Assembly: GCA_035577805.1 (NCBI GenBank)
Contig: DATLUX010000650.1
Location: forward strand, 16,943-80,942
Direction of reading: 5' to 3'
DNA length: 64,000 bases
Source: Verrucomicrobiia bacterium
Lineage (GTDB): Bacteria; Verrucomicrobiota; Verrucomicrobiia; Limisphaerales; JADJPG01
Below, piece after piece: positions 35,631 through 56,194 of this stretch (positions are counted from its first letter, which is position 1; each line of letters starts with the position of its first letter). A program made the translations under genes and the position numbers. A model generated the notes under the pieces. The model searched no databases. It was not told the DNA's origin and saw nothing but the letters and a program-made list of their open reading frames with translations.

Positions 35631-35725
35631 TTCGGTTCTCCGTAATGAGAGAACGATATTAACAAATCCTGTCATTCTCGGATAGTCGAATCCGATCTCA
35701 ACGCTCAAGATATCGATCTTTCCTA

Positions 35726-36484
35726 TTAACCCAGGGCCCACATGCCGGAATCTGCTTCCAACATTCGCTGCCACTCGCTGTCCGACCGCGTTGAACCCGT
35801 CAGAACTTCCACGATGCCATCGCGTTTCATGATGTCGCAATATTCCTGAACCAACGCCTCAAAGCGGATCAGTGCCCTGTCGAGCGCTTCAATATCGTCT
35901 AGGTAATCCTCTCGGCGGTACGGGATGATCACTTCCTTCAGGTTCGGACTATAGCTTACGAAATCCCAACCATCGAATCCCGAAACCAGGATTGAGCCGA
36001 CAACCTGCCAGCGATAGTCAGCGCCGGGCCCTTCCACCATGTATTGGAGGTGCTGCGCGGCGGAAGGCACTTTGATTTCGACGCCCCATAGGCGGTCAGT
36101 GCTAATTCGATCTGGTGAGCACGCCCGAGTGCCGTCGTCCGATATGATGATACCGATCGCGTCGGTGGTTCTCCCACGCACCGTCTCGTAATGTTTGACG
36201 GCGTTTGGCTCCTCTTTCTTCCCTCTCTCGACCCAATATAGCCCGTCAATCGGTTTCTCGGTGTCCTCCTTCAGAAGGCGTTGAACCGCCACTTCGCGAG
36301 CATATTTTTCAGCCGATCCCGTGGTGCCTTTCGTGCGGCCTGTCTTCCATTGGCCGGTGGCCTCGCTGAGTATCCGATCAAAGCTGGATGCGGTTGCTCG
36401 CCCCATGCGTAGTTCGCGCCACTCTGGGCTCCCTTGGGCCAGTAGGTTCTCCGTCCCCTCGATGTGCGTGAGGAACTTCGGCAT
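35726..36484 (-). CDS. YqaJ/lambda-exonuclease-family recombination nuclease
   Basis: QGSPEW..LR.G..TAS, ERG..EEP.A, CSPD, EIKVP, Y.WQV. Confidence 0.9.
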   Translation of the reverse strand: MPKFLTHIEGTENLLAQGSPEWRELRMGRATASSFDRILSEATGQWKTGRTKGTTGSAEKYAREVAVQRLLKEDTEKPIDGLYWVERGKKEEPNAVKHYETVRGRTTDAIGIIISDDGTRACSPDRISTDRLWGVEIKVPSAAQHLQYMVEGPGADYRWQVVGSILVSGFDGWDFVSYSPNLKEVIIPYRREDYLDDIEALDRALIRFEALVQEYCDIMKRDGIVEVLTGSTRSDSEWQRMLEADSGMWALG

Positions 36485-37365
36485 CAGAGTTTGACCTTCT
36501 GTTCGATGGAGGTCAGGTGCTTGGCCTTCAGGCTCAACAGCGCGCGCCGCACGCGGACGTTGTCCTCCTGGCGGATTGAAATGTAGCCCTTCGGAAGTGC
36601 GTAGCCGAGCATGTCGTTGAACCACTCGACAATGATAGTCTTGCGTTCGTCGGGTCCAAGTCCTTCACCAAGCCCGGCTTCCTCGACCATGATCTTGATC
36701 TGCGCGGCCTCATCGAAGGTGATCGGTAGACCGCCGGCGGCAACTCCATCGTCATCAGCACCCTTTCGCACAATTCGGAAGAACCCAATCAGGATGTATT
36801 TCTGACCGTAGGTGTCGGTCGAGCCTGCGGCCTGGAGGTTCCCGCGGCCTGGGCCGCTGTCCAGCGGCAGAGGGAACGAGGCGGTGATGTTGTGCCCTCC
36901 CCGATGCCAAAGCGTGCCAGTGACCACGAACCCGCCTCCGTCGCCCTGTCGGGGGGCCCTGTCGTAGGTAACTGAGAAGCCATACTTGGTCATGATCGGG
37001 CGGATCATCTCGTCGATGTCCTCGAGCGCGGCATAGCGGTAACCGCCCTTGTTCTCGCCCTCCTTGCCGAGTTTGACCTCGGCGTTGCGCACCACGGCCT
37101 GACACTCGGACTGTGCCGCTGCCATGTCGACGGCGAATGCGCGTAGGGCTTGGCGGTCCTCGGCCCGCTCTTGCATCGCGGTGAGAGCCTGCAGCTTCGC
37201 CACGTCGAATGACGGATCACGCGCGAGTTCCAGGATCGCGCTCCGGACAATCTCGCCTTGGTTCGCCGTTTCGATTGCTCCCTCGTGTCGCACAGCGACG
37301 TCCTGTGCGATTGGCGTGTCGATCCCGAGGTCTGTCTGTTCGGCTTCGATTGTTTTTGTTGGCAT
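36484..37365 (-). CDS. ERF-family single-strand annealing protein
   Basis: YRYA.LEDI...IRP...KYG, H.GGH, QAAGST.TYG.KY, DDDG. Confidence 0.85.
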   Translation of the reverse strand: MPTKTIEAEQTDLGIDTPIAQDVAVRHEGAIETANQGEIVRSAILELARDPSFDVAKLQALTAMQERAEDRQALRAFAVDMAAAQSECQAVVRNAEVKLGKEGENKGGYRYAALEDIDEMIRPIMTKYGFSVTYDRAPRQGDGGGFVVTGTLWHRGGHNITASFPLPLDSGPGRGNLQAAGSTDTYGQKYILIGFFRIVRKGADDDGVAAGGLPITFDEAAQIKIMVEEAGLGEGLGPDERKTIIVEWFNDMLGYALPKGYISIRQEDNVRVRRALLSLKAKHLTSIEQKVKL

Positions 37366-37580
37366 CAGAATGGAATCCTTGTGAAGCGTTGGGTAACGAT
37401 GTCCTGACGCTTGGTGACCGAGATCGGTTCGAGGACGTAGAAGTCGTGGCCGGGATGCTCGCGGGCCAGCCTAGTGGCTTCGTCCATGGCAGACCGCTCA
37501 TTTGGGTGCTGACGGCTGGGCGAGCGTCCCTGGGGATCCCAGACGAGCCAGAATGGCGGCGTAGTAATTTGATCTCTCAT
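37365..37580 (-). CDS. Hypothetical protein
   Basis: FWLVW...P...H....A..EA.RLA..HPG..FYVL pattern. Confidence 0.6.
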   Translation of the reverse strand: MRDQITTPPFWLVWDPQGRSPSRQHPNERSAMDEATRLAREHPGHDFYVLEPISVTKRQDIVTQRFTRIPF

Positions 37581-38188: not shown

Positions 38189-38712
38189 GGTGACACTCCT
38201 TTGCCAGACAGTTCGACTTTGCGCAGAAGCTGCGGGTTAACCAGACGACCATGTTCAGCGGCGTGGCAAATATGGCAGAGCCATATAACATCGAGCGGCT
38301 TAGAATAGTCCGGATGGTGCGCGTGCGTCTTTGCCTCGCCGCATCGTTCGCATGGCTTTTTCGTTATTTTTCCAGCTTTGATCGCGGCCGATACAGCCGT
38401 GCGTGCGGCTACCTTTTCAGGATTTTTTTGTTTGGTGCGCGCGTCGCTTATCTTCGTTGCGGCCTTTCCGGCCTCAGTTTTCCGGTAGACCAAAACCCGA
38501 TCCATGACTTTCTCGGGTGCCGCAAGATACAGGGCTTTGTGATAGGAGCGGCGACCCTCTCTGTTCCGGTCGCCATATTCCCGCCAACTCTTGCGTTGGC
38601 CGACCCGGGCGCATGGGGGAGAGCAATATTTCCCCATGCTATGCCGAGTTTCAAAGGTGGTTTGACAGACCGCACAGTTTACCGAGCGCGGCATCATCCT
38701 CCCTTTTTTCAT
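38185..38712 (-). CDS. Zn-finger/HNH-like protein
   Basis: CAVC, YCSPPC, PCERCG...HAHHPDYSKPLDVIWLCHICH. Confidence 0.7.
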   Translation of the reverse strand: MKKGRMMPRSVNCAVCQTTFETRHSMGKYCSPPCARVGQRKSWREYGDRNREGRRSYHKALYLAAPEKVMDRVLVYRKTEAGKAATKISDARTKQKNPEKVAARTAVSAAIKAGKITKKPCERCGEAKTHAHHPDYSKPLDVIWLCHICHAAEHGRLVNPQLLRKVELSGKGVSP

Positions 38713-40163
38713 AGAAGATTACCGCTTGGTTGATCGTCAGTCGGCGGCTGGTCGGCCAAGTGTCCATCGACCAAAACAAACCCTACCTTCTCCCCATTAC
38801 CAACTACCTCAACCCAAATCTGCATGTCGGCTTCGTCTGCCATCTGAGCGAGCAGCTTCATGCCCTCGTCGTCCAAGAGGGAGCCGTCCCGCACCCGGAT
38901 CACCTTCAATGGGCCCGCCGTCGCGATGGCGATGGCGATCGACGTGCGGAGTTGCTGCGCGTCGCTCGCCTGGTCGAAGGGTAGGCCATCGATGGTCACC
39001 ATCCCATCGCCGAAGCCCAGTCCCTCCACCGGCAGTTTCGCCGCGGCGATCGCGTCGGCCTTCGTCTTGTCGCGTGCGGCCATGGCAGTCGTCAGTTCCA
39101 GGGCCTCCCCTTCCAGACGTTCGGCGTCCGCCTCGTGTCGCTTGCGCTGATCCCGCAGGCGGATGGCGGCGTTGGTGTTGCGCGCCTCGGTGATGCGCGC
39201 GGTCAGCGCCTCGGTGTCGATCGGTTCGGGTAGTGGCTCCGCGTCGTTAAGCGTCTTCTCCAAATCGTCGGCGGCTTCGCGGGCCTTTTTGACATGGTCA
39301 GCCGTTATCTCCCGGGCTTCAGTGATCATAGAGTTCGCTCGCTCCTGACGCTCGACGATCCGCTTTTCAAGCAGTGCGATTTGCTCTCTGAGCGAGGCGA
39401 TATCCTGGTCTCGAACCTTTTCGTGTCCAGCAATCAGATCGGGTAATTCACCCTCCACGCGATCGGCCGTGGCGCGATTGGCTTCCACCTGCTTCCGCGC
39501 CGCTTCGCGCCGGTCCGCCCTGGTCGTGATGCTGGCGTTGTGGTTCGCGGCGCCGTTCAACTGCTCGATCAGCGCGGCCTCATCCACGGGTTGCGTCGTG
39601 TCGTCGATGCTGTCCGGCACCTGCACCGACAATGCCGCCGAGCGCGCCTGCTTGGCGTCGCGGTTGACCTCGGTACGCTTGGTGAAATCGGACTTGTTGC
39701 GCGCGGCGATGTCGTCGAAGTCGACGTCGGGTACGAACACCCGCAACTGGTCGAATTGCTCCTTGGACTTCATCCGGCTGAACGCGAGCGGATCCATGGT
39801 GATCCGGCCCATCAGCTTGTCCATCATGGCCTGGGGCGATGGCGCGCGGAAACCGTCCGCGGTCTCGACCGTCAGGGTATTGGTGAAGCCCGCCGCCTCC
39901 TTCCGCCGCCGCAGCGTGCGGGTGGCGATCAGTTCGACCTTGTCGCCTCCCAGCTTCAACTGCATCACGGCCTTGTCTTGGCCCTTGCGGATCGGCGCCG
40001 CCTGAATCGCATCCGCGCCCTCGAGTACGGCCCATATCCCGTCCAGCACCGAGGTCTTGCCCTGACCGTTCTTGCCGGTGATCTGCACCAGATTCCCGGT
40101 CGGCGTGATCTGGACGACGGATATGCGCTTGAAGTTCTCCGCGGAGAAATTGAGGATTTTCAC
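38709..40163 (-). CDS. SMC/SbcC-like coiled-coil P-loop ATPase
   Basis: ENFKRI, Walker A GKNGQGKTS, long coiled coil, QAS..QQL, DGSLLD; GTG start 40163. Confidence 0.85.
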   Translation of the reverse strand: MKILNFSAENFKRISVVQITPTGNLVQITGKNGQGKTSVLDGIWAVLEGADAIQAAPIRKGQDKAVMQLKLGGDKVELIATRTLRRRKEAAGFTNTLTVETADGFRAPSPQAMMDKLMGRITMDPLAFSRMKSKEQFDQLRVFVPDVDFDDIAARNKSDFTKRTEVNRDAKQARSAALSVQVPDSIDDTTQPVDEAALIEQLNGAANHNASITTRADRREAARKQVEANRATADRVEGELPDLIAGHEKVRDQDIASLREQIALLEKRIVERQERANSMITEAREITADHVKKAREAADDLEKTLNDAEPLPEPIDTEALTARITEARNTNAAIRLRDQRKRHEADAERLEGEALELTTAMAARDKTKADAIAAAKLPVEGLGFGDGMVTIDGLPFDQASDAQQLRTSIAIAIATAGPLKVIRVRDGSLLDDEGMKLLAQMADEADMQIWVEVVGNGEKVGFVLVDGHLADQPPTDDQPSGNLL

Positions 40164-40336
40164 GGTGTCGTTTCCTTTGCCAGATGGGCGTTGGTCTGCC
40201 AGTGGAACGGCGCGACCTTGATGTAGGTGCGCTCGCATCCCTCGCAGAAATACGGTGACTCAGTCGCCTCGCGTTCGGTCAGCGGGGCCATGCACGACCA
40301 GCACCGCAGAGGGGTGCCGCTTTTGGTTGTCAGCAT
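40160..40336 (-). CDS. Small zinc-ribbon protein (58 aa, not in ORF track)
   Basis: CWSC...FCEGC; fills the gap exactly with overlaps at both ends. Confidence 0.55.
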   Translation of the reverse strand: MLTTKSGTPLRCWSCMAPLTEREATESPYFCEGCERTYIKVAPFHWQTNAHLAKETTP

Positions 40337-43913: not shown

Positions 43914-44120
43914 ATGAGCGACCGTCTGCGCGGCAACACGAACCGCTGCAAGCCGCACCATCCGAAGACCCTCATTCAGCGCGCACGTCAGTTCTGGGAT
44001 CTTGGCTACTCCGCATCTGAGGTAGCGTTTTTCGTGGAGTTATCGCGTAGCGCGGTGTGCGGGATCGCGCATCGGAACGATTTTCCGGCGCGTGAGCCGC
44101 CGATAAAGAGGTCGCCATGA
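43914..44120 (+). CDS. GcrA-like N-terminal HTH protein
   Basis: W..G.SASEVA....SRSAVCG.AHR matches the GcrA N-terminal pattern. Confidence 0.65.
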   Translation: MSDRLRGNTNRCKPHHPKTLIQRARQFWDLGYSASEVAFFVELSRSAVCGIAHRNDFPAREPPIKRSP

Positions 44121-45100
44121 TGTCTCCGGAGGAAGCAGCGTCTTTGACCGCCGCCGTCGCGCTTGAAGTCGCCGGCGGCCTCGTGGATGAGGCGGCAAAA
44201 TATTCCGCTCGGCGTCAGTCGACATACCGGCATGACAATCCGGGGCTCGTTCGTGACCCTGTCGACCGTGTCCAGCGCACGTTTCACAACAAGAGCCGGG
44301 CAACATCCACCCTGGCTCGCTTCGTGAACCTAGCAGTGACGGAACCCTCACGTCGATCCACGGCGGCGCTGAACCTGCGGCACCCCGCCTTGAGGGAAGG
44401 TCGTACTATCTTCTCGACCCGAGTGTTCGACGCACACGAACGCGACCGAGTACTGATCAGCGGCGAAAACAACGCGAAACTGGGCAAGAGGGTAACCGTC
44501 GGCGACTGGGCCGGATTTCCGATTTACACGATGTCGCTTGAGGAACGCGCGACATGCCCGCGGACGTGTGCCGCGTGGGCTGAGTGCTACGGTAATGGCA
44601 TGCCCGCTGCCGTTAGGTTCCGGTACACACCAGCGCTCCTGCTGGCGATCCATCGTGATCTAACGATCCTGTCCAAGTTGCCCAGATCGAAGCGTGGGTT
44701 CGTGGTCCGGTTGCATGTTCTCGGTGACTTCCCGGACGCTCGTTATGCTCGCGAGTGGGCTCGGTGGTCGAGCGAATTCCCGGCTTTGCGCGTCGAGGGT
44801 TATACAGCGCACCCAAGGCATAGTGAGATTGGGTCAATCATCGCGGCGATGAACGCGAAGCGGTCCAATCGTTGGCAAATCCGTAACTCAGTCGCTCCCG
44901 ATGCGCCGTACGAGCCTATGCAGGTGACCACGCTTTGGGAGAAGCCAGATCGGAACGTCTACGATCCGGCGACGAAAACGATGGTCTGCCCGCAGGAACT
45001 CGGCAAAACGCAAACCTGCGGAACGTGCGGCGTTTGCTGGAAGCCCGAATTGAATCACGTCCGCGTTGCGTTCTTCGGCCATGGTGGCCGAGGCCAATGA
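44117..45100 (+). CDS. Gp88-like Cys-rich phage protein
   Basis: N.KLG, SLEERATCP..C....CY, RLHV.GDF, GYT, CP.......CGTCG.CW. Confidence 0.65.
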   Translation: MMSPEEAASLTAAVALEVAGGLVDEAAKYSARRQSTYRHDNPGLVRDPVDRVQRTFHNKSRATSTLARFVNLAVTEPSRRSTAALNLRHPALREGRTIFSTRVFDAHERDRVLISGENNAKLGKRVTVGDWAGFPIYTMSLEERATCPRTCAAWAECYGNGMPAAVRFRYTPALLLAIHRDLTILSKLPRSKRGFVVRLHVLGDFPDARYAREWARWSSEFPALRVEGYTAHPRHSEIGSIIAAMNAKRSNRWQIRNSVAPDAPYEPMQVTTLWEKPDRNVYDPATKTMVCPQELGKTQTCGTCGVCWKPELNHVRVAFFGHGGRGQ

Positions 45101-45330
45101 CCCTTCACCTGAAACCCATAAAGGATACCGCTATGCAGCCTGACCTTTTATCGAGCCTCAGTTTCTCCAAGATGGAGAACGCCGTCGAAACATCCATCCA
45201 GGCGGTCAGTGGCCACCGGATCGCCGTGTTTTCGAAGTTCCTCGCCGCGCTGCACGCGAATGGGTATTGCGTTCAGCCGTTACCCGAAGGGGCGGTGGTG
45301 CCCGTTCCTGTTGAGCGGCCGGACGAATGA
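45097..45330 (+). CDS. Hypothetical protein
   Basis: ATGA overlaps on both sides. Confidence 0.45.
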   Translation: MTLHLKPIKDTAMQPDLLSSLSFSKMENAVETSIQAVSGHRIAVFSKFLAALHANGYCVQPLPEGAVVPVPVERPDE

Positions 45331-45518
45331 TATCCCCCGGCGGCCTGCGGTCCGTGGACATGGCCCAGCGGCTTCTCACGGCGTCGCTGAACCTGGAAGA
45401 GGCGGCGAACACCTACGCGATCAATCCTACCGTTGTGAATTACCACGAGATGCTGGTCTGCATGAAGGAGCACTACGAAGTGCTGACCGCCTCGTTTCGG
45501 GAGATCGCATTGCGGTGA
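45327..45518 (+). CDS. Hypothetical protein
   Basis: Coupled ORF, helical. Confidence 0.5.
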   Translation: MISPGGLRSVDMAQRLLTASLNLEEAANTYAINPTVVNYHEMLVCMKEHYEVLTASFREIALR

Positions 45519-45559
45519 CCGCTTGACGCTACCCCGATGCGGGGGATCGGTGTTGTCAC

Positions 45560-45740
45560 TCAGGTCTGGTGAAGCGGCGGGCCGAAATTGACATCGGCTG
45601 CTGGGCCTCAGTAGGCGGGCAGGGCGTCATCCCTGCGTTGTGTGATACCCCGCCGGCGGTTCCACACCGTCAGAGCCAAGAGTTGCGTCCACGCGCTCCG
45701 AACATGCTGATCCGGCTTAGTCCCCGGGGCATCGGCCTGA
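45560..45740. ncRNA. Putative structured non-coding RNA
   Basis: Closing stem TCAGGTCTGGTG/CATCGGCCTGA around several hairpins, in a gap without credible ORFs. Confidence 0.3.
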
Positions 45741-45809
45741 CCGCGCACACCTTGTGTGTCCTTCCACACCGCCGTTCGCTTCACCAGATTCCCTTTGTCC
45801 GTATGGTTG

Positions 45810-45983
45810 TCAGTCTTTTGCGCGGCGCACAATCTTTGTGGTGTCGCGCACGCGCCCGGTGCGCCCCCAACTGTCCGCCTCATCATTCGCAAGTCGCCGA
45901 GCTTCGGTCGGGTCACGCGCCTCGATCTCGCACGAGGTTTCGTATTCGACCCATTCCTTCATTTCGACAACGTATTTGGGCAT
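45810..45983 (-). CDS. Cassette gene, hypothetical (57 aa, not in ORF track)
   Basis: MPKYVVEMKEWVEYETSCEIEA...; fits exactly between two repeats. Confidence 0.6.
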   Translation of the reverse strand: MPKYVVEMKEWVEYETSCEIEARDPTEARRLANDEADSWGRTGRVRDTTKIVRRAKD

Positions 45984-46004
45984 CGAGACTTCCGTTTGGA
46001 TCTC

Positions 46005-46262
46005 TCAATCTGCGTCCGACCATGGGCGCACATATTTCCATCCTTCTTTCAGCATGTCGCCGGCCGTCCAGTCAGAATCGGGCTGATCTAATTCATCAAC
46101 CGCCCACCAACGATCTTCTCCGAACAGTTTGCTCCAACCGTGGAAATAGAGGCCTGGCTCAGTTTGAGTGGTGGGATGCCGCAACAACCAATGTAACCCG
46201 CGCTGCGCGTCTTCAAACGGGTTTGATGTTGATATAATCGATGTTCTTTGGGCATGTGGCAC
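46005..46262 (-). CDS. Cassette gene, Trp-rich hypothetical
   Basis: GTG start after a repeat carrying GGAG; stop just before the next repeat. Confidence 0.55.
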   Translation of the reverse strand: MPHAQRTSIISTSNPFEDAQRGLHWLLRHPTTQTEPGLYFHGWSKLFGEDRWWAVDELDQPDSDWTAGDMLKEGWKYVRPWSDAD

Positions 46263-46282
46263 AATCGTTCCGCTCCGTCCGT

Positions 46283-46513
46283 TTAGGGTTGTCGTGCAGC
46301 ACAGGCGATTTGTAGCCGATTTGTCGCTGCCTTCAGCTTCTCGTCTGCCTTCATCAATTCGTCCAAAGCGCCTCCCTGTTGTTTGGCGACGCGCTCCCAT
46401 TCGCGGGCGCGATATTCCGCGCCGTCGGCACGCTCCCATTGAACAAACAGGACGCAAGAGAGAGCCACGCAGAACGGCAGAAAAGCGAACGGGGCGAGAT
46501 GTTTCAAGGCCAT
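46283..46513 (-). CDS. Cassette gene, TM plus coiled coil
   Basis: Stop TAA lies inside the repeat CAACCCTAAACGGAC. Confidence 0.6.
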   Translation of the reverse strand: MALKHLAPFAFLPFCVALSCVLFVQWERADGAEYRAREWERVAKQQGGALDELMKADEKLKAATNRLQIACAARQP

Positions 46514-46521
46514 TTGTCCGT

Positions 46522-46710
46522 TTAGGGTTGTATCATTGAGGCAGGCAACAGCGGAGACTTCGCCCGCATCATGTCATCGATCTGACGGGTGATCAGATAG
46601 CTGGCGACGTCATTGGTCGTGAGACCGAACAGTCCGGTTTTTCGCATAGCTTCCAGGCAATCGATTAAGGGATCCGGCAAGGTGACGTCGATCGTCTCGT
46701 GATGGGCCAT
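46522..46710 (-). CDS. Cassette gene, ribbon-helix-helix-like
   Basis: IDVTLP......LE...KTGLFG....VA; stop inside the repeat. Confidence 0.6.
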   Translation of the reverse strand: MAHHETIDVTLPDPLIDCLEAMRKTGLFGLTTNDVASYLITRQIDDMMRAKSPLLPASMIQP

Positions 46711-46730
46711 TCGCTCCGTCCGTTTGGTAC

Positions 46731-46994
46731 TCAGTGTTTCCAGCCGTGCGTGCACCAGCAATATCCCGCTGCTCCCGCGACGATCTGCGGGAACTGCGCC
46801 AGGATGGCGTCGGCCTTCTTTGGAGAGAGGCGCACGGTCACCCTGGCATTCCCCACAATCTGGATATTGCCGCGGCCCAGCATCGGCGCCAGTCGGTCAG
46901 TCGCATCGCGCACGGCTTGTTCCTCGGCGCTGCCCATATCAACTAGGATGTGCTTGCCACCCATGCCGTTTTGTAGCCAGAAACTTTGCACCAT
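46731..46994 (-). CDS. Cassette gene, hypothetical
   Basis: 87-aa ORF bounded by repeats. Confidence 0.6.
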   Translation of the reverse strand: MVQSFWLQNGMGGKHILVDMGSAEEQAVRDATDRLAPMLGRGNIQIVGNARVTVRLSPKKADAILAQFPQIVAGAAGYCWCTHGWKH

Positions 46995-47014
46995 CGCATT
47001 TCTCCGTTTGGTGT

Positions 47015-47329
47015 TTAGGTTGCGCGATTGGTGATCCAGGACGCCAGATCGTTTGCTCCGCCATGCATTTCAGCCGGGCCTCGGGGGCCTTCCAGAAGGA
47101 AGTAGATAGTGTCTGACCCATTGGCATACCGACATTCGACCGCCCATCCTGAACTGGATGTGCTCGTGACGATCGGCCGCAAGTCCTGAATAGTGTCGGC
47201 ATTAAAGAAAATTCGATGCGGGTGAATGCCGTGTCCACAGCATGACTCGAAGGTCATGATACCCGGTAGACAGTTGAGTGCATCACAGAGGGCGATGCAC
47301 TCCCGATCAATGTCTGGCGGGTATTTCAT
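47015..47329 (-). CDS. Cassette gene, hypothetical (ESCCGH motif)
   Basis: ID.EC..LC.ALN..PGI.TFESCCGHG; bounded by repeats. Confidence 0.65.
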   Translation of the reverse strand: MKYPPDIDRECIALCDALNCLPGIMTFESCCGHGIHPHRIFFNADTIQDLRPIVTSTSSSGWAVECRYANGSDTIYFLLEGPRGPAEMHGGANDLASWITNRAT

Positions 47330-47555
47330 TGCATTTGTCCGTTTGGTTACACGCAAAAAATCGTCGCGCCCGAACGTCATCGCCCGCACTGAGCCATTAA
47401 CGCCGGTTCCTGCCTCCAGATCGGACGCGCGACGCGCCCCACAGCTACCCCGGCAGTCGGGGTCGGACGGGTTACTCGGCTTGCCGTCCGCATGACCAGA
47501 TTTTTGAGGATGGAGCGCATCACGCCCGAGGGCCAAAGGTCGTCATTTTCGATTG

Positions 47556-47589
47556 TCCGTATCGTTGACTTATTGCGAAATCGGACATA
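47556..47589. other. res-like recombinase binding site
   Basis: TGTCCG...CGGACA inverted repeat about 50 nt upstream of the recombinase ATG. Confidence 0.55.
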
Positions 47590-47641
47590 CCGTCGCGAAA
47601 CCAACTTGTCAACCAACTATCGCCGTGATAGTGGAATTGAC

Positions 47642-48298
47642 ATGTCGAAAACGCCGTCCGAGCCCTCTGAAGAAGTCCCTCGTCGAGGCCCGACACTGCC
47701 AGACGGCTCGATCATGATCGGCTACGCGCGGGTCTCGACCGGCGACCAGGACAACCGCCGACAGAAGGATGCGCTCGAGGCGTTCGGGGTCGATCCGCGC
47801 GACATCTGGGAGGACAAGGCAAGCGGTCGCAGCATGAACCGCGCGGGCTGGCAGGGCTGCTGGAGAGACATTCGGGCCGGTGATCTGCTTGTCGTCCACT
47901 CCATCGACCGCCTTGGCCGCGACCTGATCGAGCTGGTGAGAACCGTGCGGGATCTCCATGAAAGAGGCGCGAACCTCAAAGTCCTGACTATGGACATCGA
48001 TACCCGGACAGCGACCGGACGCCTGCTTTTCAACTTCATCGCCGCCTTGGCTGAATGGGAGCGCGACCTGATTGTCGAACGTACCCGCCACGGCCTCGCT
48101 GTAGCGCGATCAATGGGGCGCCTCGGGGGCCGACGTCAACAGATCACCGACGAACAGGTCAAGCAGGCGATCTGCCGACTGCACAAGGGCGAGACATTGG
48201 AAGAGATCGCCAAGGACATGGGGTTCACCAAGCAGGGCATTTCCAAGCGGATCCGCGCTGCACAAGCGAAGGAGTCAGCCGATGGCGACAAATCCTGA
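47642..48298 (+). CDS. Small serine recombinase (resolvase/invertase family)
   Basis: IGYARVSTGDQ, EDKASG, GD.LVV.SIDRLGR, AEWER..I.ERT..GL..AR..GR.GGR, C-terminal HTH. Confidence 0.95.
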   Translation: MSKTPSEPSEEVPRRGPTLPDGSIMIGYARVSTGDQDNRRQKDALEAFGVDPRDIWEDKASGRSMNRAGWQGCWRDIRAGDLLVVHSIDRLGRDLIELVRTVRDLHERGANLKVLTMDIDTRTATGRLLFNFIAALAEWERDLIVERTRHGLAVARSMGRLGGRRQQITDEQVKQAICRLHKGETLEEIAKDMGFTKQGISKRIRAAQAKESADGDKS

Positions 48299-48482
48299 AA
48301 CAAGACCAGAGCCGAACGATCGAAGCATAATAATTGACCGCCTGGCACGTGCCCATGCGGATGCCTGTCGCACAGGCGACGAACACATGCGCCGTATCCT
48401 GGTCAGTCGCATTTGCCACCACATCCAGGCCGAGGCGATGGATCGACGGGAGCGCGAAATCCTGGGGAGAAACGAACAGTGA
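48282..48482 (+). CDS. Hypothetical protein (array gene)
   Basis: AAGGAG RBS; 66 aa. Confidence 0.55.
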   Translation: MATNPETRPEPNDRSIIIDRLARAHADACRTGDEHMRRILVSRICHHIQAEAMDRREREILGRNEQ

Positions 48483-48667
48483 GCGCAGACCAACCGAGCC
48501 GGGCGCAACTTGCCGTCGAGCGCAAGCTGGAAGTGGTCACGCTAACGATCACCTGCACCAGCCAATATGCGGCGATGGAACTCTACGATCAGGTGTGCGC
48601 CAGCGCGCGCGACGGGTATGTCGAACTGCAACTAGAGACCCGTGAAAGGAACGCCGATGCCATCTGA
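48479..48667 (+). CDS. Hypothetical protein (array gene)
   Basis: GTG start, GGAG RBS; begins MSADQPS. Confidence 0.55.
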   Translation: MSADQPSRAQLAVERKLEVVTLTITCTSQYAAMELYDQVCASARDGYVELQLETRERNADAI

Positions 48668-48887
48668 TACGAGCCGCCTGCGGCCATTCGCGGCCCTGGT
48701 CTGTGTTTTTGCCCTGCTCGGGTGCGCTCAGCGCCGCGACCGTGCCGCCGAGGTTGAGGAAATCGCCGCGGTGATCGCGGATGGTCAAAACATCCGCGAT
48801 GAGGAATTTCGGACAAGTATCTATTTCCGACCGGATTGGCGTGACCGGGCAATCGCCAGGATGATTTTGAGGAGGCTCGACCGATGA
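48657..48887 (+). CDS. Putative lipoprotein/membrane protein (array gene)
   Basis: AAAGGA RBS; hydrophobic stretch ending LLGC. Confidence 0.5.
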   Translation: MPSDTSRLRPFAALVCVFALLGCAQRRDRAAEVEEIAAVIADGQNIRDEEFRTSIYFRPDWRDRAIARMILRRLDR

Positions 48888-49111
48888 GTGAAAGCGACAA
48901 AGGCTCTAACCAACCGAGCGACCTGCCACAGCTAGAGCCTTGGCAATTTCAACCTGACAACGATTCTCCCGGTCTTTACCTTCAGTGCTCCAGCGCCGCA
49001 CAGCGCGATGCGATCATGCGTGCCTTGGGCGCTCCCGTTTGGTCTGCCCAGGAAATGAATGAAGCCGATCGGGAGGCCGCGAAGCTCGTGGAGAACATCA
49101 GATGGGAGTGA
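48884..49111 (+). CDS. Hypothetical protein (array gene)
   Basis: GAGGAGG RBS; NQPS near N-terminus. Confidence 0.55.
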   Translation: MSESDKGSNQPSDLPQLEPWQFQPDNDSPGLYLQCSSAAQRDAIMRALGAPVWSAQEMNEADREAAKLVENIRWE

Positions 49112-49344
49112 CAAATCGAACGGCACTGGCTCGCGGTTCCGTCCGCTATCACGGCGAGGTGTTCCGGCGAAGCGGAGACTTCCTCAAGATCGAAGGCGAG
49201 ACGGGAGGGTATGCGCCGATCGTGACCATCACCGTTCAAATGGACTGCGGCGAGATCAACCTCTGGCTTCAACCGGAAGAGGCGTCCGAACTCGCACGAC
49301 ACCTGACCAACGCCAAGGAGTCAATCGACCGTGCCAAACTCTGA
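49108..49344 (+). CDS. Hypothetical protein (array gene)
   Basis: GTGA overlap; L.PEEA.ELA..L motif. Confidence 0.5.
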   Translation: MTNRTALARGSVRYHGEVFRRSGDFLKIEGETGGYAPIVTITVQMDCGEINLWLQPEEASELARHLTNAKESIDRAKL

Positions 49345-49525
49345 AACGAGTAATCTTGTCCGCTTGACGGTCACAGACGGGCGCACTGAAAACTGGCGAT
49401 TCCCGGATGGAACAGTCGTGACGATGACCGTGCCGATCGATGAGCCGCCAATCACAGTGAAGCACGCCGTCTACTGCCTGTCATCCATCCTGCATCAGAC
49501 ACACCGAGCAATGGAGGACGGCTAA
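49331..49525 (+). CDS. Hypothetical protein (array gene)
   Basis: AAGGAG RBS. Confidence 0.55.
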   Translation: MPNSETSNLVRLTVTDGRTENWRFPDGTVVTMTVPIDEPPITVKHAVYCLSSILHQTHRAMEDG

Positions 49526-49779
49526 TGACCGATACAGCCAAGTGTCCGATGCCGGACGACGTTTGCGCCGATTGCGGACATCGCTGCGCGCCGCCCAAAC
49601 CAGACAACTCCATCCATTATTACAATCTGTTTATGCAAGCCAAAGCGGAGGTCGAAAGCCTGCGCCAGCAACTTGCGGCGCTGGACAAAGAATGGCGCGG
49701 CGGCTGTGCGATGAACGGTAGTTGCCGGGTCACGTTTCTGCTCGACCAAGGTGAGGCGGCAAGTGACAAACCCCATTAA
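49525..49779 (+). CDS. Hypothetical protein (array gene)
   Basis: GGAGG RBS; CADCG plus coiled coil. Confidence 0.5.
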   Translation: MTDTAKCPMPDDVCADCGHRCAPPKPDNSIHYYNLFMQAKAEVESLRQQLAALDKEWRGGCAMNGSCRVTFLLDQGEAASDKPH

Positions 49780-50050
49780 CCAACCGAGCGCGCCCGAAGA
49801 TAACCCCTTCGAGAACGGCTACCTGGCTGGCCAGCGTCGGGTCTACCTGGAAATGCTGGCGACCGCTTTGCGTGGGCTGGGGCGCGACGCGCCGGAATGG
49901 CAACTCGGCCGCTTGATCTCCGAACGAGAGGAGGCGGTAGCAACGTGCCGTCGAATTTGCGTCGAGCATGGAGACAACGATTGGCCCGATGACCTGCACC
50001 TATCGGACATCATCGAGAAGCACGTCTGGGCTGGTTGCGATGGAGGGTAA
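49763..50050 (+). CDS. Hypothetical conserved phage protein (array gene)
   Basis: GTG start; NQPS; ERE.A...R.IC.EHGDNDW.D.LHLSDIIEKH. Confidence 0.6.
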   Translation: MTNPINQPSAPEDNPFENGYLAGQRRVYLEMLATALRGLGRDAPEWQLGRLISEREEAVATCRRICVEHGDNDWPDDLHLSDIIEKHVWAGCDGG

Positions 50051-50125
50051 GACAGTGGATGGCCAAGACCAACCGAGTGCATCATGCTGAACACACTCGG
50101 CTTTACGCTGAACGACGGGCAGTAG

Positions 50126-51007
50126 ATGGTCACGACGATTTACGCTTTGCGGGACCCGCGCGAGGACCAAAATAGTCTCTTGACTATCCGGTATATCGGC
50201 AAGACCATATCGCCGCTCCACAAACGCCTCGCTGGGCATTTCACCAAGGCAGTGAACCCGAGGAGTGGGCGCTACGATCTGTGGGTAGCAAGATGGATCA
50301 GGACACTTACGGTCGATGGCGTTCGGCCAACCATCTCTGCCCTCGAACGGGCTGCGGATGATTGGGCTGAACGTGAAGCCTTCTGGATAACCTATTGTCG
50401 CGAAGCCGGTGCGATGCTCACCAACCTGACGGCCGGCGGCGAAGGAACCTACGGCAGAAAGGCAACGGAAGAACAGCGAGAGAATTGCAGGCGGGCGGCC
50501 GAGAGGCGTTGGTCTCAAGTGGATCAGCGAGAAATCGCTCGCAGGAACGCGCTGCGACAATTCTCTGATCCTGAACAGTTAGAAGCGCTGCGCCAGCGAA
50601 GCCTCAATATGTCCTCCGAAACGATCGAGAAAATCCGGGCGGCCGCAGTTGCTCAAGCTGAAGCTGCTGGAAGTGACCACATGAAGGGTATGGCGCTGGC
50701 CGCCTGGACTGACCCAGATAGCCGATCAAGGCTGTTGGCGTCCCGCAAACAGGTCGCCAGTGACCCGGAATTTCGAAAGCGGGTAGGTGAAGGTGTCTCG
50801 CTGGCATGGTCTGATCCGGATACTCGGGACCGGTTCATGGAAGGGATCAGAGGCAGGCCACCGCAGTCAAAAGCGTCCAGAGAGCAGGCTGCCGCATCCA
50901 ATCGCGGGCGGACACGGTCACCGGAAGCGCGGGCTCGCATTAGCGCTGGATGTCTTGCCCGTGAGGCAAGAAAACGTGCTTTGCACATGATGGAAAACGA
51001 ACAGTGA
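50126..51007 (+). CDS. GIY-YIG homing endonuclease with NUMOD3-like repeats
   Basis: IYALRDP...RYIGKT....KRL..H, E.FWI, LTN.T.GGEG, SPEARARIS. Confidence 0.85.
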   Translation: MVTTIYALRDPREDQNSLLTIRYIGKTISPLHKRLAGHFTKAVNPRSGRYDLWVARWIRTLTVDGVRPTISALERAADDWAEREAFWITYCREAGAMLTNLTAGGEGTYGRKATEEQRENCRRAAERRWSQVDQREIARRNALRQFSDPEQLEALRQRSLNMSSETIEKIRAAAVAQAEAAGSDHMKGMALAAWTDPDSRSRLLASRKQVASDPEFRKRVGEGVSLAWSDPDTRDRFMEGIRGRPPQSKASREQAAASNRGRTRSPEARARISAGCLAREARKRALHMMENEQ

Positions 51008-55188: not shown

Positions 55189-56194
55189 TCTGGCGCGTCC
55201 TTGATCTGTTCAGCGGGATCGGTGCTTTCACCTTGGGACTCCAGCGCGCTGGTATGGAACCAGTCGCTTTTGTCGAAATTGACCCATTTTGCCGCGATGT
55301 CCTCGCGCGTCATTGGCCAGGAGTCCCGATCCTTGAAGACGTTAGAAGTGCCGCGTTTCCTGCGGCGGGTTCCCCTGCCAGGACATCTCCCGAGCCGGGA
55401 AACGCGCCGGCGTTACCGGAGAGCGTTCAGGACTGTACCGGGAACTGGTGCGTGCCATTCGCGTGGTTCGACCGCGCATCGCGATTGTGGAGAACGTGGC
55501 AGCTCTCCTTGACGATGGAATGGGCACCGTTCTTGGAGACTTGACCGAGGGCGGGGATTGTGTTGAATGGGATTGCGTACCGGCGAACGCCCTCGGCGCT
55601 TGTCATGAGAGGGACCGCGTATGGATCGTTGCCCACGCCGACAGCGACGGACGGCGGTCCGGACAGGGAGGACAAGCCTCGCTCGCACGGGATGAACCTT
55701 GCGGGTGTCCTCAAACACCGGTCCCTTCCCAGTCTACCGACCCCGACAGCGTTCGATGCGGTGCCGGCCTGGGGGCCGAGGAACCAGGACGGGAAGAGGC
55801 ATGGCGGCGGGAACTCTCCGGGACTGCGTCATCTAGCGGCACTGCCGACGCCCAGGGCGACGGATGCGGACAAGGGTGGCCGCGGCGACCTCCTGACAGT
55901 TTTGCGCGGATACGAGACGAAGCACGCCGGAACGCTGCCGACCCCTACGGCGCGAGACTGGCGTTCCGGTTTGGCTTCGGAAGAAACGCATTCGACCAAT
56001 TCGAGGCCGCTGAACGAAGTCGTGGCCAGGATGTCGGGGAATCGATCTGGCCGGATGAACCCGCGCTTTCGGGAGTGGATGATGAGACTCCCGATTGGAT
56101 GGACCGAACGAAAGCCACCGGAAATACTCTAGACCCCTTGATCCCCGAGTTGATCGGGCGCGCAATCATCGAGGCTGCTCATGACTGGACCTGA
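55185..56194 (+). pseudogene. C5-cytosine DNA methyltransferase (alpha chain), frameshifted near 55360
   Basis: LDLFSGIG (motif I) in one frame; GGFPCQDIS (IV), ENV (VI), H.RDRVW (VIII) and GN...P (X) in another. Confidence 0.75.
55560..56132 (+). CDS. Overlapping-frame C5-MTase partner chain (TRD repeats plus motif IX)
   Basis: Four LPTP.A.D repeats and MNPRFREWMMRLPIGWT. Confidence 0.65.
   Translation: MLNGIAYRRTPSALVMRGTAYGSLPTPTATDGGPDREDKPRSHGMNLAGVLKHRSLPSLPTPTAFDAVPAWGPRNQDGKRHGGGNSPGLRHLAALPTPRATDADKGGRGDLLTVLRGYETKHAGTLPTPTARDWRSGLASEETHSTNSRPLNEVVARMSGNRSGRMNPRFREWMMRLPIGWTERKPPEIL

What the first reader, a model, noticed from the sequence alone, without database searches (positions are those of the whole stretch)
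45792..48298. Integron-like array: six single-gene cassettes delimited by resolvase-half-site repeats next to a serine recombinase
Seen: divergent from a small serine recombinase, six unrelated minus-strand ORFs (57-104 aa) are each bounded by one motif. Minus-strand copies: GTAACCAAACGGACAAATG (47335), ACACCAAACGGAGAAATG (47001), GTACCAAACGGACGGAGCG (46716), ACAACCCTAAACGGACAAATG (46514), ACAACCCTAAACGGACGGAGCG (46275), ATCCAAACGGAAG (45990), ACAACCATACGGACAAAG (45795), plus TCAACGATACGGACAATC (47555) inside the res-like site. There is one copy per junction, two genes use the repeat as their stop, and left and right flanks reassort between copies as expected of crossover products. Known: TGTCCG is the half-site bound by gamma-delta/Tn3-type resolvase HTHs, whereas integrons use tyrosine recombinases. 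Inference: a phage gene-capture system in which the resolvase serially inserts or excises small accessory genes. I know of no named system matching this.
Basis: partly seen in the sequence, partly recalled or inferred. Interest (0 to 1): 0.88.

Follow-up and report, generated by a model that had tools for sequence, protein, structure and literature searches.

The report
Repeated junction motif in phage operon
A short sequence repeated between seven tiny genes of a soil phage, beside a recombinase gene, is real and recurs in other phages, but it looks more like a gene-expression and joining signal than an integron-like capture site.

Summary
Eight same-strand copies of a ~16-20 nt motif (core CCAAACGGAC) lie at window 45791-47568. 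One sits in the leader and one fills each stop-to-start gap of seven small unrelated minus-strand ORFs. The operon is divergent from an intact Gin-like small serine recombinase. In the 9.74 Mb assembly only 9 sites score >=20 bits, and 7 of them are this array. None of 58 other gene starts of the phage has the motif.

The integron-like mechanism is not supported:
- The sites are lone asymmetric half-sites with no dyad partner.
- They have no hairpins.
- They sit 3-15 nt before start codons and often carry GGAG.
- The same motif precedes small genes in other uncultivated GC-rich phages. In two of them the divergent neighbour is a resolvase-fold protein that lacks the catalytic Arg68/Arg71 equivalents. 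A third record has no resolvase at all.

Best reading (about 0.4): a portable junction linker (stop, A/C-rich spacer, SD, start) that drives translation of each cassette. Its repetition also gives microhomology for cassette gain and loss by general recombination; the phage encodes Erf.

Rivals: stoperator-like DNA sites for the resolvase-fold protein (0.25), recombination linker only (0.12), true serine-recombinase cassette capture (0.1).

Two other soil samples show variants that break at motif edges.

The parts
47642..48298 (+). Small serine recombinase (218 aa), Gin/Hin-like, with catalytic motifs intact
   Evidence: Pfam PF00239 E 3.7e-40. Matches PDB Gin invertase 4m6f at E 2e-35 and gamma-delta resolvase at 7.6e-25, with YARVS and DRLGRD aligned. 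Best phage matches are annotated DNA invertases at about 45% identity.
47584..47612 (-). Inferred sigma-70-like promoter of the small-gene operon: TTGACA (47612-47607), 17 nt, TATGTC (47589-47584)
   Evidence: Read. The consensus scanner did not call it. Inferred from the same TTGACA-N17/18-TAnnnn arrangement at the equivalent place in L102, L103, L104 and L106.
47554..47587 (.). 34-bp TGTCCG-N22-CGGACA inverted pair overlapping the -10. Its right arm is motif copy J0.
   Evidence: Read. Only the outer 6 bp are symmetric; the inverted-partner score is 0.9 bit, at chance level.
47551..47568 (-). Motif copy J0 (TCAACGATACGGACAATC) in the leader, followed after 9 nt by an 8-codon mini-ORF
   Evidence: core alignment.
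47377..47520 (-). g0, a possible 47-aa leader ORF (uncertain)
   Evidence: GC1,2,3 = 0.62/0.62/0.69, a weak coding signal.
47331..47350 (-). Motif copy J1 (GTAACCAAACGGACAAATGC)
   Evidence: 25.2 bits. Its own ATG opens a 2-codon ORF; the true start is 5 nt further on.
47015..47329 (-). g1, 104 aa, Cys-rich ORFan
   Evidence: No Pfam or PHROG match. One relative at 67% identity. The nearest Atlas clusters are viral hypothetical proteins, score 0.92.
46996..47015 (-). Motif copy J2 (AACACCAAACGGAGAAATGC)
   Evidence: 26.9 bits. The stop of g1 (ACC TAA) lies just before it.
46731..46994 (-). g2, 87 aa
   Evidence: Full-length 45%-identity homologues in two IMG/VR contigs (L024, L025). These lack the motif.
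46712..46731 (-). Motif copy J3 (AGTACCAAACGGACGGAGCG)
   Evidence: 24.5 bits. In sample X4 a contig matches through this motif and then diverges.
46522..46710 (-). g3, 62 aa
   Evidence: One small relative, 74 aa at 43% identity, E 3.3e-5. Ends CAA CCC TAA inside J4.
46510..46529 (-). Motif copy J4 (AACCCTAAACGGACAAATGG)
   Evidence: 28.0 bits.
46283..46513 (-). g4, 76 aa, hydrophobic N-terminus
   Evidence: Ends CAA CCC TAA inside J5.
46271..46290 (-). Motif copy J5 (AACCCTAAACGGACGGAGCG)
   Evidence: 24.3 bits.
46005..46262 (-). g5, 85 aa from a GTG start (doubtful gene)
   Evidence: No homologue; GC3 0.51.
45984..46003 (-). Motif copy J6 (AGATCCAAACGGAAGTCTCG), the weakest copy
   Evidence: 20.3 bits, leave-one-out 8.8 bits.
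45810..45983 (-). g6, 57 aa
45791..45810 (-). Motif copy J7 (ACAACCATACGGACAAAGGG)
   Evidence: 25.5 bits.
45608..45784 (-). g7, 58 aa from a GTG start; last gene of the operon
36484..37365 (-). Phage Erf-family single-strand-annealing recombinase. With the exonuclease at 37577-38188, it is a candidate agent of motif-to-motif recombination.
   Evidence: PF04404 E 8e-14 and PF00929 E 5.4e-8. Its role at the array is inferred.

Best explanation
The repeat is a portable junction linker of one accessory-gene operon. Each stop-to-start gap is filled by the same module: the stop of the upstream gene, an A/C-rich G/U-poor spacer (ACAACCnAAAC), a GGA/GGAG purine block, and then a start codon 3-15 nt later.

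It most likely acts on the polycistronic mRNA as a start-associated sequence. The spacer would give an unstructured ribosome landing or re-initiation site, so that each small, foreign-looking ORF is translated. A host or phage RNA-binding factor may use the same site.

Because the same ~16-20 nt recur at every junction and in other phages, they also serve as microhomology. General recombination (the phage encodes Erf plus an exonuclease) or illegitimate recombination can add, drop or swap single genes there. This is the way T4-type phages use their PeSL repeats.

The neighbouring serine recombinase belongs to the same conserved module (a resolvase-fold gene, a divergent promoter and a small-gene operon). 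It is not needed to make the array.

Shown: the array, its operon specificity, its start association, its recurrence in other phages, the absence of dyad symmetry and of hairpins, and the A/C-rich composition. Inferred: the action on translation and the recombination by-product.
For: - Position. All 8 copies are followed by ATG or GTG within 3-15 nt, and upstream stops lie in or just before the motif.
- SD content. J2, J3 and J5 contain GGAG.
- Other phages. The motif precedes start codons in L049 (3 copies), L062 (2-3 copies), L103 (1), L018 (2) and L070. L018 and L049 share the 16-mer ACGGAGAACTGAGATG at gene starts.
- Different neighbours, same core. The core is the same although the neighbouring resolvase-fold proteins are only about 21-22% identical. 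L018's record gave no match to the canonical resolvase model or to the A2 profile. This points to a shared, non-phage-specific reader.
- Composition. A+C at -28 to -10 is 0.69 for the 7 array genes against 0.52 for 58 other genes (Mann-Whitney p 7.6e-4). The sister operon L104 has no ACGGAC core yet is 0.61-0.89 A+C, with '(A)CC TAA (A)CCCC' junctions at 5 of 7 genes.
- Copying. In J1 and J2 the motif's own ATG is not the gene start, so the junctions look copied rather than convergent.
- Recombination. The arms occur in all four combinations. In sample X4 a near-identical phage diverges right after J3. In X3, 5 substitutions and a 3-nt deletion cluster in 14 nt at the left edge of J1, against 4 changes in the other ~320 nt.
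- The phage encodes Erf.
- Precedents. Start-associated sequences of Cluster K phages are a 13-bp asymmetric repeat 3-7 bp before starts, in one orientation, in non-structural genes (PMC3203893, passages read). PeSL-mediated shuffling is described in PMC2839356 (abstract read).
Against: - The distance from motif to start varies (3-15 nt). J3, J5 and J7 carry a separate SD downstream of the core, so the core itself is not the SD.
- No other gene of the phage uses the motif, including structural genes.
- In the binned host genome, AAACGGA[CG] is barely start-associated: 23.7% against 16.9% for a control word. The bin may not be the host.
- J0, and a leader copy in L049, lie just after the -10 in an operator-like position rather than at a real gene start.
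- The A/C-richness test is partly circular for the window, because the motif itself is A/C-rich.
- 16-20 nt is short for Erf-type recombination.
- No expression data exist.
Confidence: 0.4

Rival explanations
1. Stoperator-like DNA sites. The divergently encoded resolvase-fold HTH protein would bind an operator at the promoter (J0) plus one asymmetric site in every short intergenic gap. This would silence initiation and elongation of the accessory operon, as the L5-type mycobacteriophage repressor does.
For: - A resolvase-family gene lies divergent from a motif-bearing operon in the window, L049 and L062, and with one copy in L103.
- In whole records the motif is confined to that operon: G402 has 3 hits against 0 for the control, and the window phage behaves the same way.
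- A copy sits just after the -10 in the window and in L049.
- All sites are asymmetric and face the direction of transcription, as described for stoperators (PMC9283540, passages read).
- The partner protein in L049 and L062 keeps its HTH but has lost the R68/R71 equivalents, which fits a DNA-binding, non-catalytic role.
- The core contains TGTCCG. That this is the outer part of gamma-delta/Tn3 half-sites is recalled from memory, not taken from a call.
Against: - The core is the same in phages whose resolvase-fold proteins are about 21-22% identical and have unlike recognition helices.
- L018 has junction copies but gave no match to the canonical resolvase model or to the A2 profile in an 86%-complete record.
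- L104 and L106 have the protein but no ACGGAC junctions.
- Resolvases bind as dimers to two half-sites, and none of the junctions has a partner.
Confidence: 0.25
2. Integron-like capture. The serine recombinase would recombine the junction motifs as quasi-half-sites, serially inserting or excising single-gene cassettes.
For: - An intact Gin-like recombinase lies next to the array.
- The left half of J4 and J5 plus the next two bases (CCCT AAA CG GA) resembles Hin/Gin half-sites (TCCT AAA CC AT and ...AAA CC GA; PMC3985619 Table 1, read).
- There is one site per junction, all direct.
- The arms are mosaic.
- Variants in X3 and X4 change at motif edges.
- The ORFs are unrelated ORFans with low GC3.
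Against: - No dyad partner exists at any junction.
- No hairpins: z-scores run from -1.6 to +0.8.
- Arrays exist beside resolvase-fold proteins that lack R68 and R71, and in a record with no resolvase match.
- Direct repeats of a functional site beside an active resolvase should delete one another.
- Wild-type resolvases need accessory sites and invertases need an enhancer (PMC2794168 and PMC3798978, passages read).
- No joints were seen, although that call saw contigs only.
Confidence: 0.1
3. Pure recombination scars or linkers. The repeat would have no role in expression. It would persist only because genes were pasted in by microhomology-mediated or homologous recombination with other phages carrying the same junction, and because gene conversion homogenises it.
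For: - Mosaic arms.
- Decoy ATGs in J1 and J2.
- Identical 16-mers in unrelated phages.
- An Erf gene in the phage.
- Population variants at motif edges.
Against: - An invariant ACGGA core in 8 of 8 copies, and conservation across very divergent phages, imply selection.
- Placement is strict relative to stops and starts.
- L104 keeps the composition but not the sequence.
Confidence: 0.12

Closest known systems
Start-associated sequences (SAS) of Cluster K mycobacteriophages (PMC3203893)
   Same: A short asymmetric repeat, in one orientation, a few nt before start codons. It sometimes holds the upstream stop and contains an SD-like core plus conserved bases that cannot pair with 16S rRNA. It is limited to non-structural genes, sits in front of unrelated gene families, and is rare in the host genome.
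   Different: The sequence is unrelated (GGGATAGGAGCCC there). SAS copies are spread over half a genome (11-19 copies), whereas here there are 8 in one 1.8-kb operon. The distance to the start is more variable here (3-15 against 3-7). No neighbouring resolvase-family gene is described for SAS. The function of SAS is itself unknown.
Stoperators of Cluster A mycobacteriophages (L5 gp71; PMC9283540)
   Same: Asymmetric sites both at a promoter and in short intergenic gaps, oriented with transcription, with an HTH regulator encoded nearby.
   Different: Stoperators number more than twenty and are spread genome-wide. Their binder is a monomeric dedicated repressor, not a resolvase-fold protein. Binding has not been tested here.
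PeSL cassettes of T4-type phages (PMC2839356, PMC4122927)
   Same: Repeats flank small ORFan genes in a plastic region. Recombination between the repeats adds, removes and swaps genes and can release mini-circles, with no dedicated site-specific recombinase.
   Different: PeSLs are a promoter plus a stem-loop terminator. Here the junctions show no hairpin and no promoter, and the repeat is much shorter.
Integrons (IntI, attI, attC)
   Same: A recombinase gene divergent from a promoter-led array of promoterless single-gene cassettes, with one repeat per junction.
   Different: The recombinase is of the serine type, not the tyrosine type. There is no attC-like imperfect palindrome or hairpin. 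The repeat lies at the 5' start side and carries the RBS. Sister arrays exist without a catalytic recombinase.
Tn3/gamma-delta res and Gin/Hin gix/hix sites with their recombinases
   Same: The enzyme family matches. The motif resembles one half-site (PMC3985619 Table 1). That resolvase also represses divergent genes from res is recalled knowledge, not taken from a call.
   Different: Those sites are dyads of two half-sites, with accessory sites or an enhancer. Here each junction is a lone half-site, and there are seven in direct repeat.
Resolvase-like small serine integrases of Ralstonia phiRSM phages (PMC4471427; only the search listing and the start of its abstract were seen)
   Same: A small resolvase/invertase-type enzyme encoded by a phage. 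This suggests an ordinary job for the window's enzyme, such as integration or multimer resolution.
   Different: No attP/attB pair was identified here, and the phage type is unrelated.

Membership tests
Integron | Tyrosine-recombinase integrase (IntI) | tested here: not met
   The neighbouring gene is a serine recombinase: PF00239 at E 3.7e-40, and Gin and gamma-delta structures are the best PDB matches.
Integron | attC sites: imperfect inverted repeats that fold as hairpins at the 3' end of each cassette | tested here: not met
   Folding 100 nt around each of 7 junctions gave z-scores from -1.6 to +0.8 and no shared structure. No inverted partner was found.
Integron | A promoter beside the recombinase gene that drives an array of promoterless cassettes | tested here: inconclusive
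   TTGACA-N17-TATGTC lies at 47612-47584 and is conserved in position in sister loci. The scanner did not call it, and there are no expression data.
Small serine recombinase crossover site (res site I, gix, hix) | Two inverted half-sites around a central dinucleotide, bound by a dimer | tested here: not met
   The best inverted-orientation score within +/-70 nt of each of 8 copies is <=1.0 bit. The null mean is 1.2 and the 95th percentile is 7.3.
Small serine recombinase crossover site (res site I, gix, hix) | A half-site sequence like that of the closest characterised enzymes | tested here: inconclusive
   CCCT AAA CG GA in J4 and J5 compares with Hin TCCT AAA CC AT and Gin ...AAA CC GA (PMC3985619 Table 1). 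By my own rough estimate, a similarity of this size is expected by chance a few times in a hundred.
Small serine recombinase crossover site (res site I, gix, hix) | A catalytically competent partner enzyme wherever the sites occur | tested here: not met
   The window's enzyme is intact. In the partner family of L049 and L062, LDRLGR is replaced by L-VLAW. L018's record has no match.
Small serine recombinase crossover site (res site I, gix, hix) | Recombination products: circles, deletions or joints at the core | tested here: inconclusive
   No joints appeared in 4 runs, all held as contigs. One X4 contig diverges after J3 for only 9 nt. Raw reads were not available.
Start-associated sequence (SAS-like element) | A short asymmetric repeat in one orientation, a few nt before start codons of unrelated non-structural genes | tested here: met
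   8 of 8 copies lie on the same strand with a start 3-15 nt downstream. The ORFs are unrelated. The other 58 gene starts lack it.
Start-associated sequence (SAS-like element) | Rare in the rest of the phage and in the host genome | tested here: met
   Of the 9 sites in the 9.74 Mb assembly that reach 20 bits, 7 are the array.
Start-associated sequence (SAS-like element) | The same consensus as the Cluster K SAS | tested here: not met
   The consensus is different (PMC3203893). This is an analogue, not a member.
Stoperator system | The same asymmetric site at a promoter and in short intergenic gaps, oriented with transcription | tested here: met
   J0 lies just after the inferred -10, and J1-J7 lie in the gaps, all on the minus strand.
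Stoperator system | A repressor binds the sites and blocks elongation | not testable with these tools
   This needs EMSA or footprinting and reporter assays.
PeSL | An early promoter plus a stem-loop terminator in each repeat | tested here: not met
   No promoter-like or terminator-like site lies at the junctions, and there is no shared hairpin.

The most novel reading that the evidence does not exclude
A serine-recombinase counterpart of the integron. A Gin-like phage recombinase would use a full site at the promoter (TGTCCG-N22-CGGACA) and hix/gix-like quasi-half-sites at each junction to capture and release single accessory genes at low frequency. The motif would double as the RBS, so that every captured gene is expressed at once. 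The catalytically degenerate relatives would be fossil arrays.
Probability: 0.1. Interest if true: 0.9.

Novelty: new variant of a known kind. Interest (0 to 1): 0.5.

Why it matters
Phage accessory regions are where anti-defence and host-takeover genes turn over fastest, and how single genes get in and out and are expressed at once is poorly understood.

This locus shows a compact, repeated stop-spacer-SD-start linker. It recurs in several unrelated uncultivated GC-rich phages. It is tied to a module headed by a resolvase-family gene, including a previously unnamed family of resolvase-fold proteins that seem to have lost catalysis.

- If the linker is a portable translation and recombination joint, it is a simple rule for plug-and-play gene exchange, and it could be used to find accessory-gene islands in metagenomic phages.
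- If the resolvase-fold protein binds the linker, this would be a case of a recombinase domesticated as a stoperator-type repressor.
- If the recombinase cuts there, it would be a new class of gene-capture system.

Tried and rejected
Close relatives of the locus.
- blastn of 44000-50500 against 50,697 phage records: no match.
- DNA of 45500-48400 against 61 genomes: only two chance-level short hits.
- Recombinase in viral contigs: 0 relatives.
- Recombinase in genome contigs: 2 hits at 31-37% identity.
- Recombinase in metagenome contigs: 5 hits at 37-45%.
- Recombinase in 401 genomes of the order: 10 genomes with a match including the window's own; the other nine are at most 46% identical.
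- g1 in viral contigs: 0.
- The GP88-like neighbour in viral contigs: 0.

The resolvase-fold family (alignment A2).
- 0 matches in isolate phages and 0 in plasmids.
- 1 of 401 genomes of the class, and 1 of 81 of that genome's family; both hits are the same short contig.

16-mer scans of IMG/VR.
- Returned 10, 25 and 31 stretches.
- Most are single in-gene matches in low-GC phage families or a 75-nt coding tandem repeat (L075, L101). I set these aside as chance or unrelated.

RNA-level ideas rejected.
- Rfam found nothing at E <= 1.
- There is no shared hairpin.

Other ideas rejected.
- The motif is not a phage-RNA-polymerase promoter: the 2887-aa ORF is not a polymerase and matches only methyltransferase-like PHROGs.
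- It is not a generic host RBS.

Expression: no RNA holder was listed.

Other runs: the small shares of the stretch held by runs X2-X5 were laid for X2-X4 only. Parts without cover are not evidence.

Tools and files closed.
- Supplementary files of PMC3203893 (SAS site tables) were not seen. They could refine the comparison but not the verdict.

Full report
WHAT THE WINDOW IS

The window is bases 16943-80942 of an 88,248-bp contig whose two ends share an exact 141-bp direct repeat. This is the signature of a complete circular or terminally redundant genome of about 88.1 kb. The genome is phage-like:
- head-closure and adaptor PHROGs;
- a tail-lysozyme domain;
- a 667-aa protein 55% identical to one of Caulobacter phage phiCbK;
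- an Erf recombinase, an exonuclease, an SbcC-like ATPase, and HNH and T5orf172 nucleases.

It was binned with a 9.74 Mb, 661-contig assembly. That assembly need not be its host.

Read on the minus strand, 45608-47620 is one tightly packed operon. Eight copies of a motif with the invariant core A[AT]ACGGA lie in it, all on the same strand. One copy is in the leader (J0, 47551-47568). One fills each stop-to-start gap before ORFs g1 to g7 (J1 to J7).

Enrichment:
- The loose core occurs 1249 times in the assembly on both strands, or 0.128 per kb. Eight same-strand copies in 1.76 kb is therefore about seventy times the per-strand expectation.
- Exact CCAAACGGA is no commoner genome-wide than its reversed control (133 against 134). 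Four copies nevertheless sit within 1.35 kb here.
- A 20-nt weight matrix finds 9 sites of 20 bits or more in the whole assembly, and 7 of them are the array. Leave-one-out scores are 8.8-24.7 bits, with J6 the weak copy.
- None of 58 other gene starts of the phage has the motif; they use ordinary GGAG-type sites. It is not simply this phage's RBS.

The ORFs:
- They are mutually unrelated and have no Pfam or PHROG family.
- g1 has one relative at 67% identity.
- g2 has two full-length relatives at 45% in IMG/VR contigs that lack the motif.
- g3 has one small relative at 43%.
- g5 has none, and its GC3 of 0.51 makes it doubtful. GC3 of g1 and g5 is well below the phage's usual 0.73-0.80.

THE RECOMBINASE

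Bases 47642-48298 encode a 218-aa small serine recombinase (PF00239, E 3.7e-40).
- Its best solved relatives are Gin invertase (E 2e-35) and gamma-delta resolvase (E 7.6e-25).
- The YARVS nucleophile motif and DRLGRD are intact.
- Its best phage relatives, at about 45% identity, are annotated DNA invertases.

TESTS OF THE INTEGRON-LIKE READING

Small serine recombinases work as dimers on sites made of two inverted half-sites. Wild-type resolvase also needs accessory sites, and invertases need an enhancer (PMC2794168, PMC3985619 and PMC3798978; passages read).
- I scanned +/-70 nt around each of the eight copies for an inverted copy of the 13-nt core. The best scores were 1.0 bit or less, against a null mean of 1.2 and a 95th percentile of 7.3.
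- Only J0 has a TGTCCG 22 nt away, overlapping the inferred -10. That symmetry is limited to 6 bp.
- Folding 100 nt around each junction gave z-scores from -1.6 to +0.8 and no common structure, so nothing resembles attC.
- Rfam found nothing.
- No promoter-like or terminator-like site lies at the junctions.

The left half of J4 and J5 with the next two bases (CCCT AAA CG GA) does resemble Hin and Gin half-sites (TCCT AAA CC AT; ...AAA CC GA; Table 1 of PMC3985619). I rate this as suggestive only.

RELATIVES

No close relative of the locus was found. I searched phage isolates, IMG/VR, JGI metagenomes, one genome per species, and 401 genomes of the bin's order. The comparison of cassette content in near relatives could therefore not be made directly.

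POPULATION DATA

Five soil runs hold part of the stretch. X1 is probably the source. Laid as contigs:
- X2 and X4 carry a near-identical phage; their flanking pieces are identical to the window.
- One X4 contig (depth about 5) matches 46711-46966 with 2 differences. This covers g2, its stop and the whole of J3. It then continues for 9 letters unlike the window, so a different sequence follows J3 there. That junction is not found anywhere in the assembly.
- One X3 contig (47177-47512) has 9 substitutions and a 3-nt deletion. Five substitutions and the deletion fall within 14 nt at the left edge of J1, while the core and right arm are unchanged.
- No joints were reported. Contigs drop rare forms.

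These are thin data. They do point to exchange at motif edges.

THE SAME MOTIF IN OTHER PHAGES

Exact 16-mer scans of IMG/VR gave mostly chance or in-gene hits. Several GC-rich contigs stood out.
- L049 (GC 0.63) has three copies on one strand, each just before an ATG: ACACCAGACGGAGAACTGAGATG, ACACCAAACGGACGGAGCGGGTAAGATG and TGAACACCAGACGGAGAATTACCCCCCATG. It also has a leader copy (CAACGGACA) just after a TTGACA-N17-TACGTT promoter.
- L062 (GC 0.64) has CCAAACGGACGGAGCGGACAG(G)ATG twice, 426 nt apart, plus a weaker third copy.
- In the whole records the core is confined to these operons: G402 has 3 hits against 0 for the control.
- L018 (GC 0.62) has two junction copies and shares the 16-mer ACGGAGAACTGAGATG with L049.

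In L049 and L062 the operon is divergent from homologous 228-233-aa genes. That family has 16 sequences (alignment A2). Evidence that it has the resolvase fold:
- Pfam PF00239 at E 2.7e-4, below the family cut-off.
- The only PDB sequence hit of its profile is Tn3 resolvase, at E 0.06 and collinear.
- hhalign against the window's recombinase plus nine homologues gives probability 94.9% and E 4.6e-8.
- The AlphaFold model has pLDDT 89.6. Every Foldseek hit listed through rank 39 is a serine recombinase (the listing skips some ranks), and 8 hits have E <= 0.001.

Evidence that it has lost catalysis:
- It keeps an invariant Ser at the end of strand 1.
- It has L-VLAW where resolvases have LDRLGR, so it lacks the R68 and R71 equivalents.
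- In Tn3 resolvase these mutants cleave about 1000-fold more slowly (PMC2794168).

Two more members were found by profile search:
- L103 has one copy (GACGGACATG) at the first divergent gene.
- L104 has none. Five of its 7 junctions read '(A)CC TAA (A)CCCC' and are 0.61-0.89 A+C.

The record of L018 (86% complete) gave no match to the canonical resolvase model or to the A2 profile. The PF00239 search also missed the known A2-family genes of the other four records, so for that family only one search counts. No cassette protein is shared between any of these phages and the window. Overall they share only a methylase with it.

WHAT THIS MEANS

The link between resolvase-family genes and motif-bearing small-gene operons is real. 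Two of the few GC-rich 16-mer hits lie beside members of one rare protein family. Three findings argue that recombinase catalysis is not what makes the arrays:
- Arrays exist beside proteins that have probably lost catalysis.
- Motif junctions exist in a record that matched neither resolvase model.
- The core is the same although the neighbouring proteins are only about 21-22% identical and have unlike recognition helices.

A shared reader such as the translation apparatus or another host factor, or horizontal spread of the junctions themselves, explains that better than co-evolving DNA-binding specificity.

Two further points bear on how the motif works:
- The motif always lies 3-15 nt before a start and often holds the upstream stop. 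It consists of an A/C-rich, G/U-poor stretch followed by a purine block. A+C at -28 to -10 is 0.69 for the 7 array genes against 0.52 for 58 other genes (p 7.6e-4). This test is partly circular for the window but independent for L104.
- In J1 and J2 the motif's own ATG is a decoy and the real start is 5 nt later. These junctions therefore look copied rather than independently evolved.

VERDICT

The most likely reading (about 0.4) is a portable junction linker.
- It works on the mRNA as a start-associated sequence, giving each small gene an unstructured landing or re-initiation site.
- Because it is repeated, it is also a hotspot for gain, loss and swapping of single genes by general recombination. 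The phage encodes Erf.
- This combines what is described for Cluster K start-associated sequences (PMC3203893) and T4-type PeSLs (PMC2839356).

The main rival (0.25) is a stoperator-like system in which the resolvase-fold protein binds J0 and every junction (PMC9283540). It is favoured by the synteny, the operon specificity and the operator-like leader copy. It is weakened by the conserved core across divergent proteins and by L018, L104 and L106.

A recombination linker with no role in expression rates 0.12, and true serine-recombinase cassette capture about 0.1.

None of this could be settled without binding, reporter and recombination assays, or deeper population reads.

In the binned genome, AAACGGA[CG] is only weakly start-associated (23.7% against 16.9% for a control word). 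The motif is not a common host signal there, but the bin may not be the host.

LITERATURE SEARCHES

- 'serine recombinase' + 'gene cassettes' + 'integron-like' + 'bacteriophage' listed no paper describing a serine-recombinase cassette array in a phage.
- Searches for start-associated sequences, PeSL and stoperators gave the analogues cited above.
- That TGTCCG is the outer part of gamma-delta/Tn3 half-sites, and that resolvase represses from res, are recalled from memory and not taken from any call.

Noticed in passing
whole contig (window = bases 16943-80942 of it): The 88,248-bp contig has an exact 141-bp direct repeat at its two ends. It is therefore a complete circular or terminally redundant phage genome binned with a 9.7 Mb assembly, not an integrated prophage.
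   Followed up: partly
L049:1372-2058, L062:2584-3285, and proteins P0003-P0017: An unnamed family of 210-233-aa proteins from uncultivated phages has the resolvase fold and a C-terminal HTH. It has an invariant YxS at strand 1, but the DRLGR motif is replaced by (A)VLAW. The gene always lies divergent from a TTGACA-type promoter and a small-gene operon. No Pfam assignment; no match in isolate phages or plasmids.
   Followed up: partly
L104:2100-3900 (minus strand): A sister operon with 7 small genes. Five of them end in xCC TAA followed by (A)CCCC, and two starts share GGAACGAGCGGATG. This is a different junction vocabulary with the same A/C-rich composition.
   Followed up: partly
window 12517-21180 (+): A giant 2887-aa ORF whose residues ~1340-1575 match methyltransferase-like PHROGs. 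Possibly an ejected or internal virion protein.
   Followed up: no
window 25272-26603 (+): A 443-aa protein with phosphoribosylglycinamide-synthetase-like ATP-grasp domains (GARS_C, E 8e-11) inside the structural region.
   Followed up: no
window 60637-62640 (-): A 667-aa protein of unknown function (phrog_1735, E 2e-268). It is 52-55% identical to a protein of Caulobacter phiCbK-like jumbo phages and has matches in 558 phage records.
   Followed up: no
window 34905-40238 (-): A recombination and nuclease block: an HNH endonuclease, an Erf single-strand-annealing protein, an RNase T-like exonuclease and an SbcC-like ATPase.
   Followed up: partly
window 47360-47355 and 47348-47361: A T6 run and the 14 nt before J1 are hypervariable between soil samples. 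The X3 contig shows 5 substitutions plus a 3-nt deletion there.
   Followed up: partly
L075 and L101 (IMG/VR): A 75-nt tandem coding repeat whose unit contains CAAAACGGACAAGTGC. It was picked up by the 16-mer scan and is unrelated to the finding.
   Followed up: no
window 55448-56194 and L102:3267-4238: The only clearly shared gene between the window phage and the L049 phage is a DNA methylase-like ORF (44-71% identity by tblastx).
   Followed up: no
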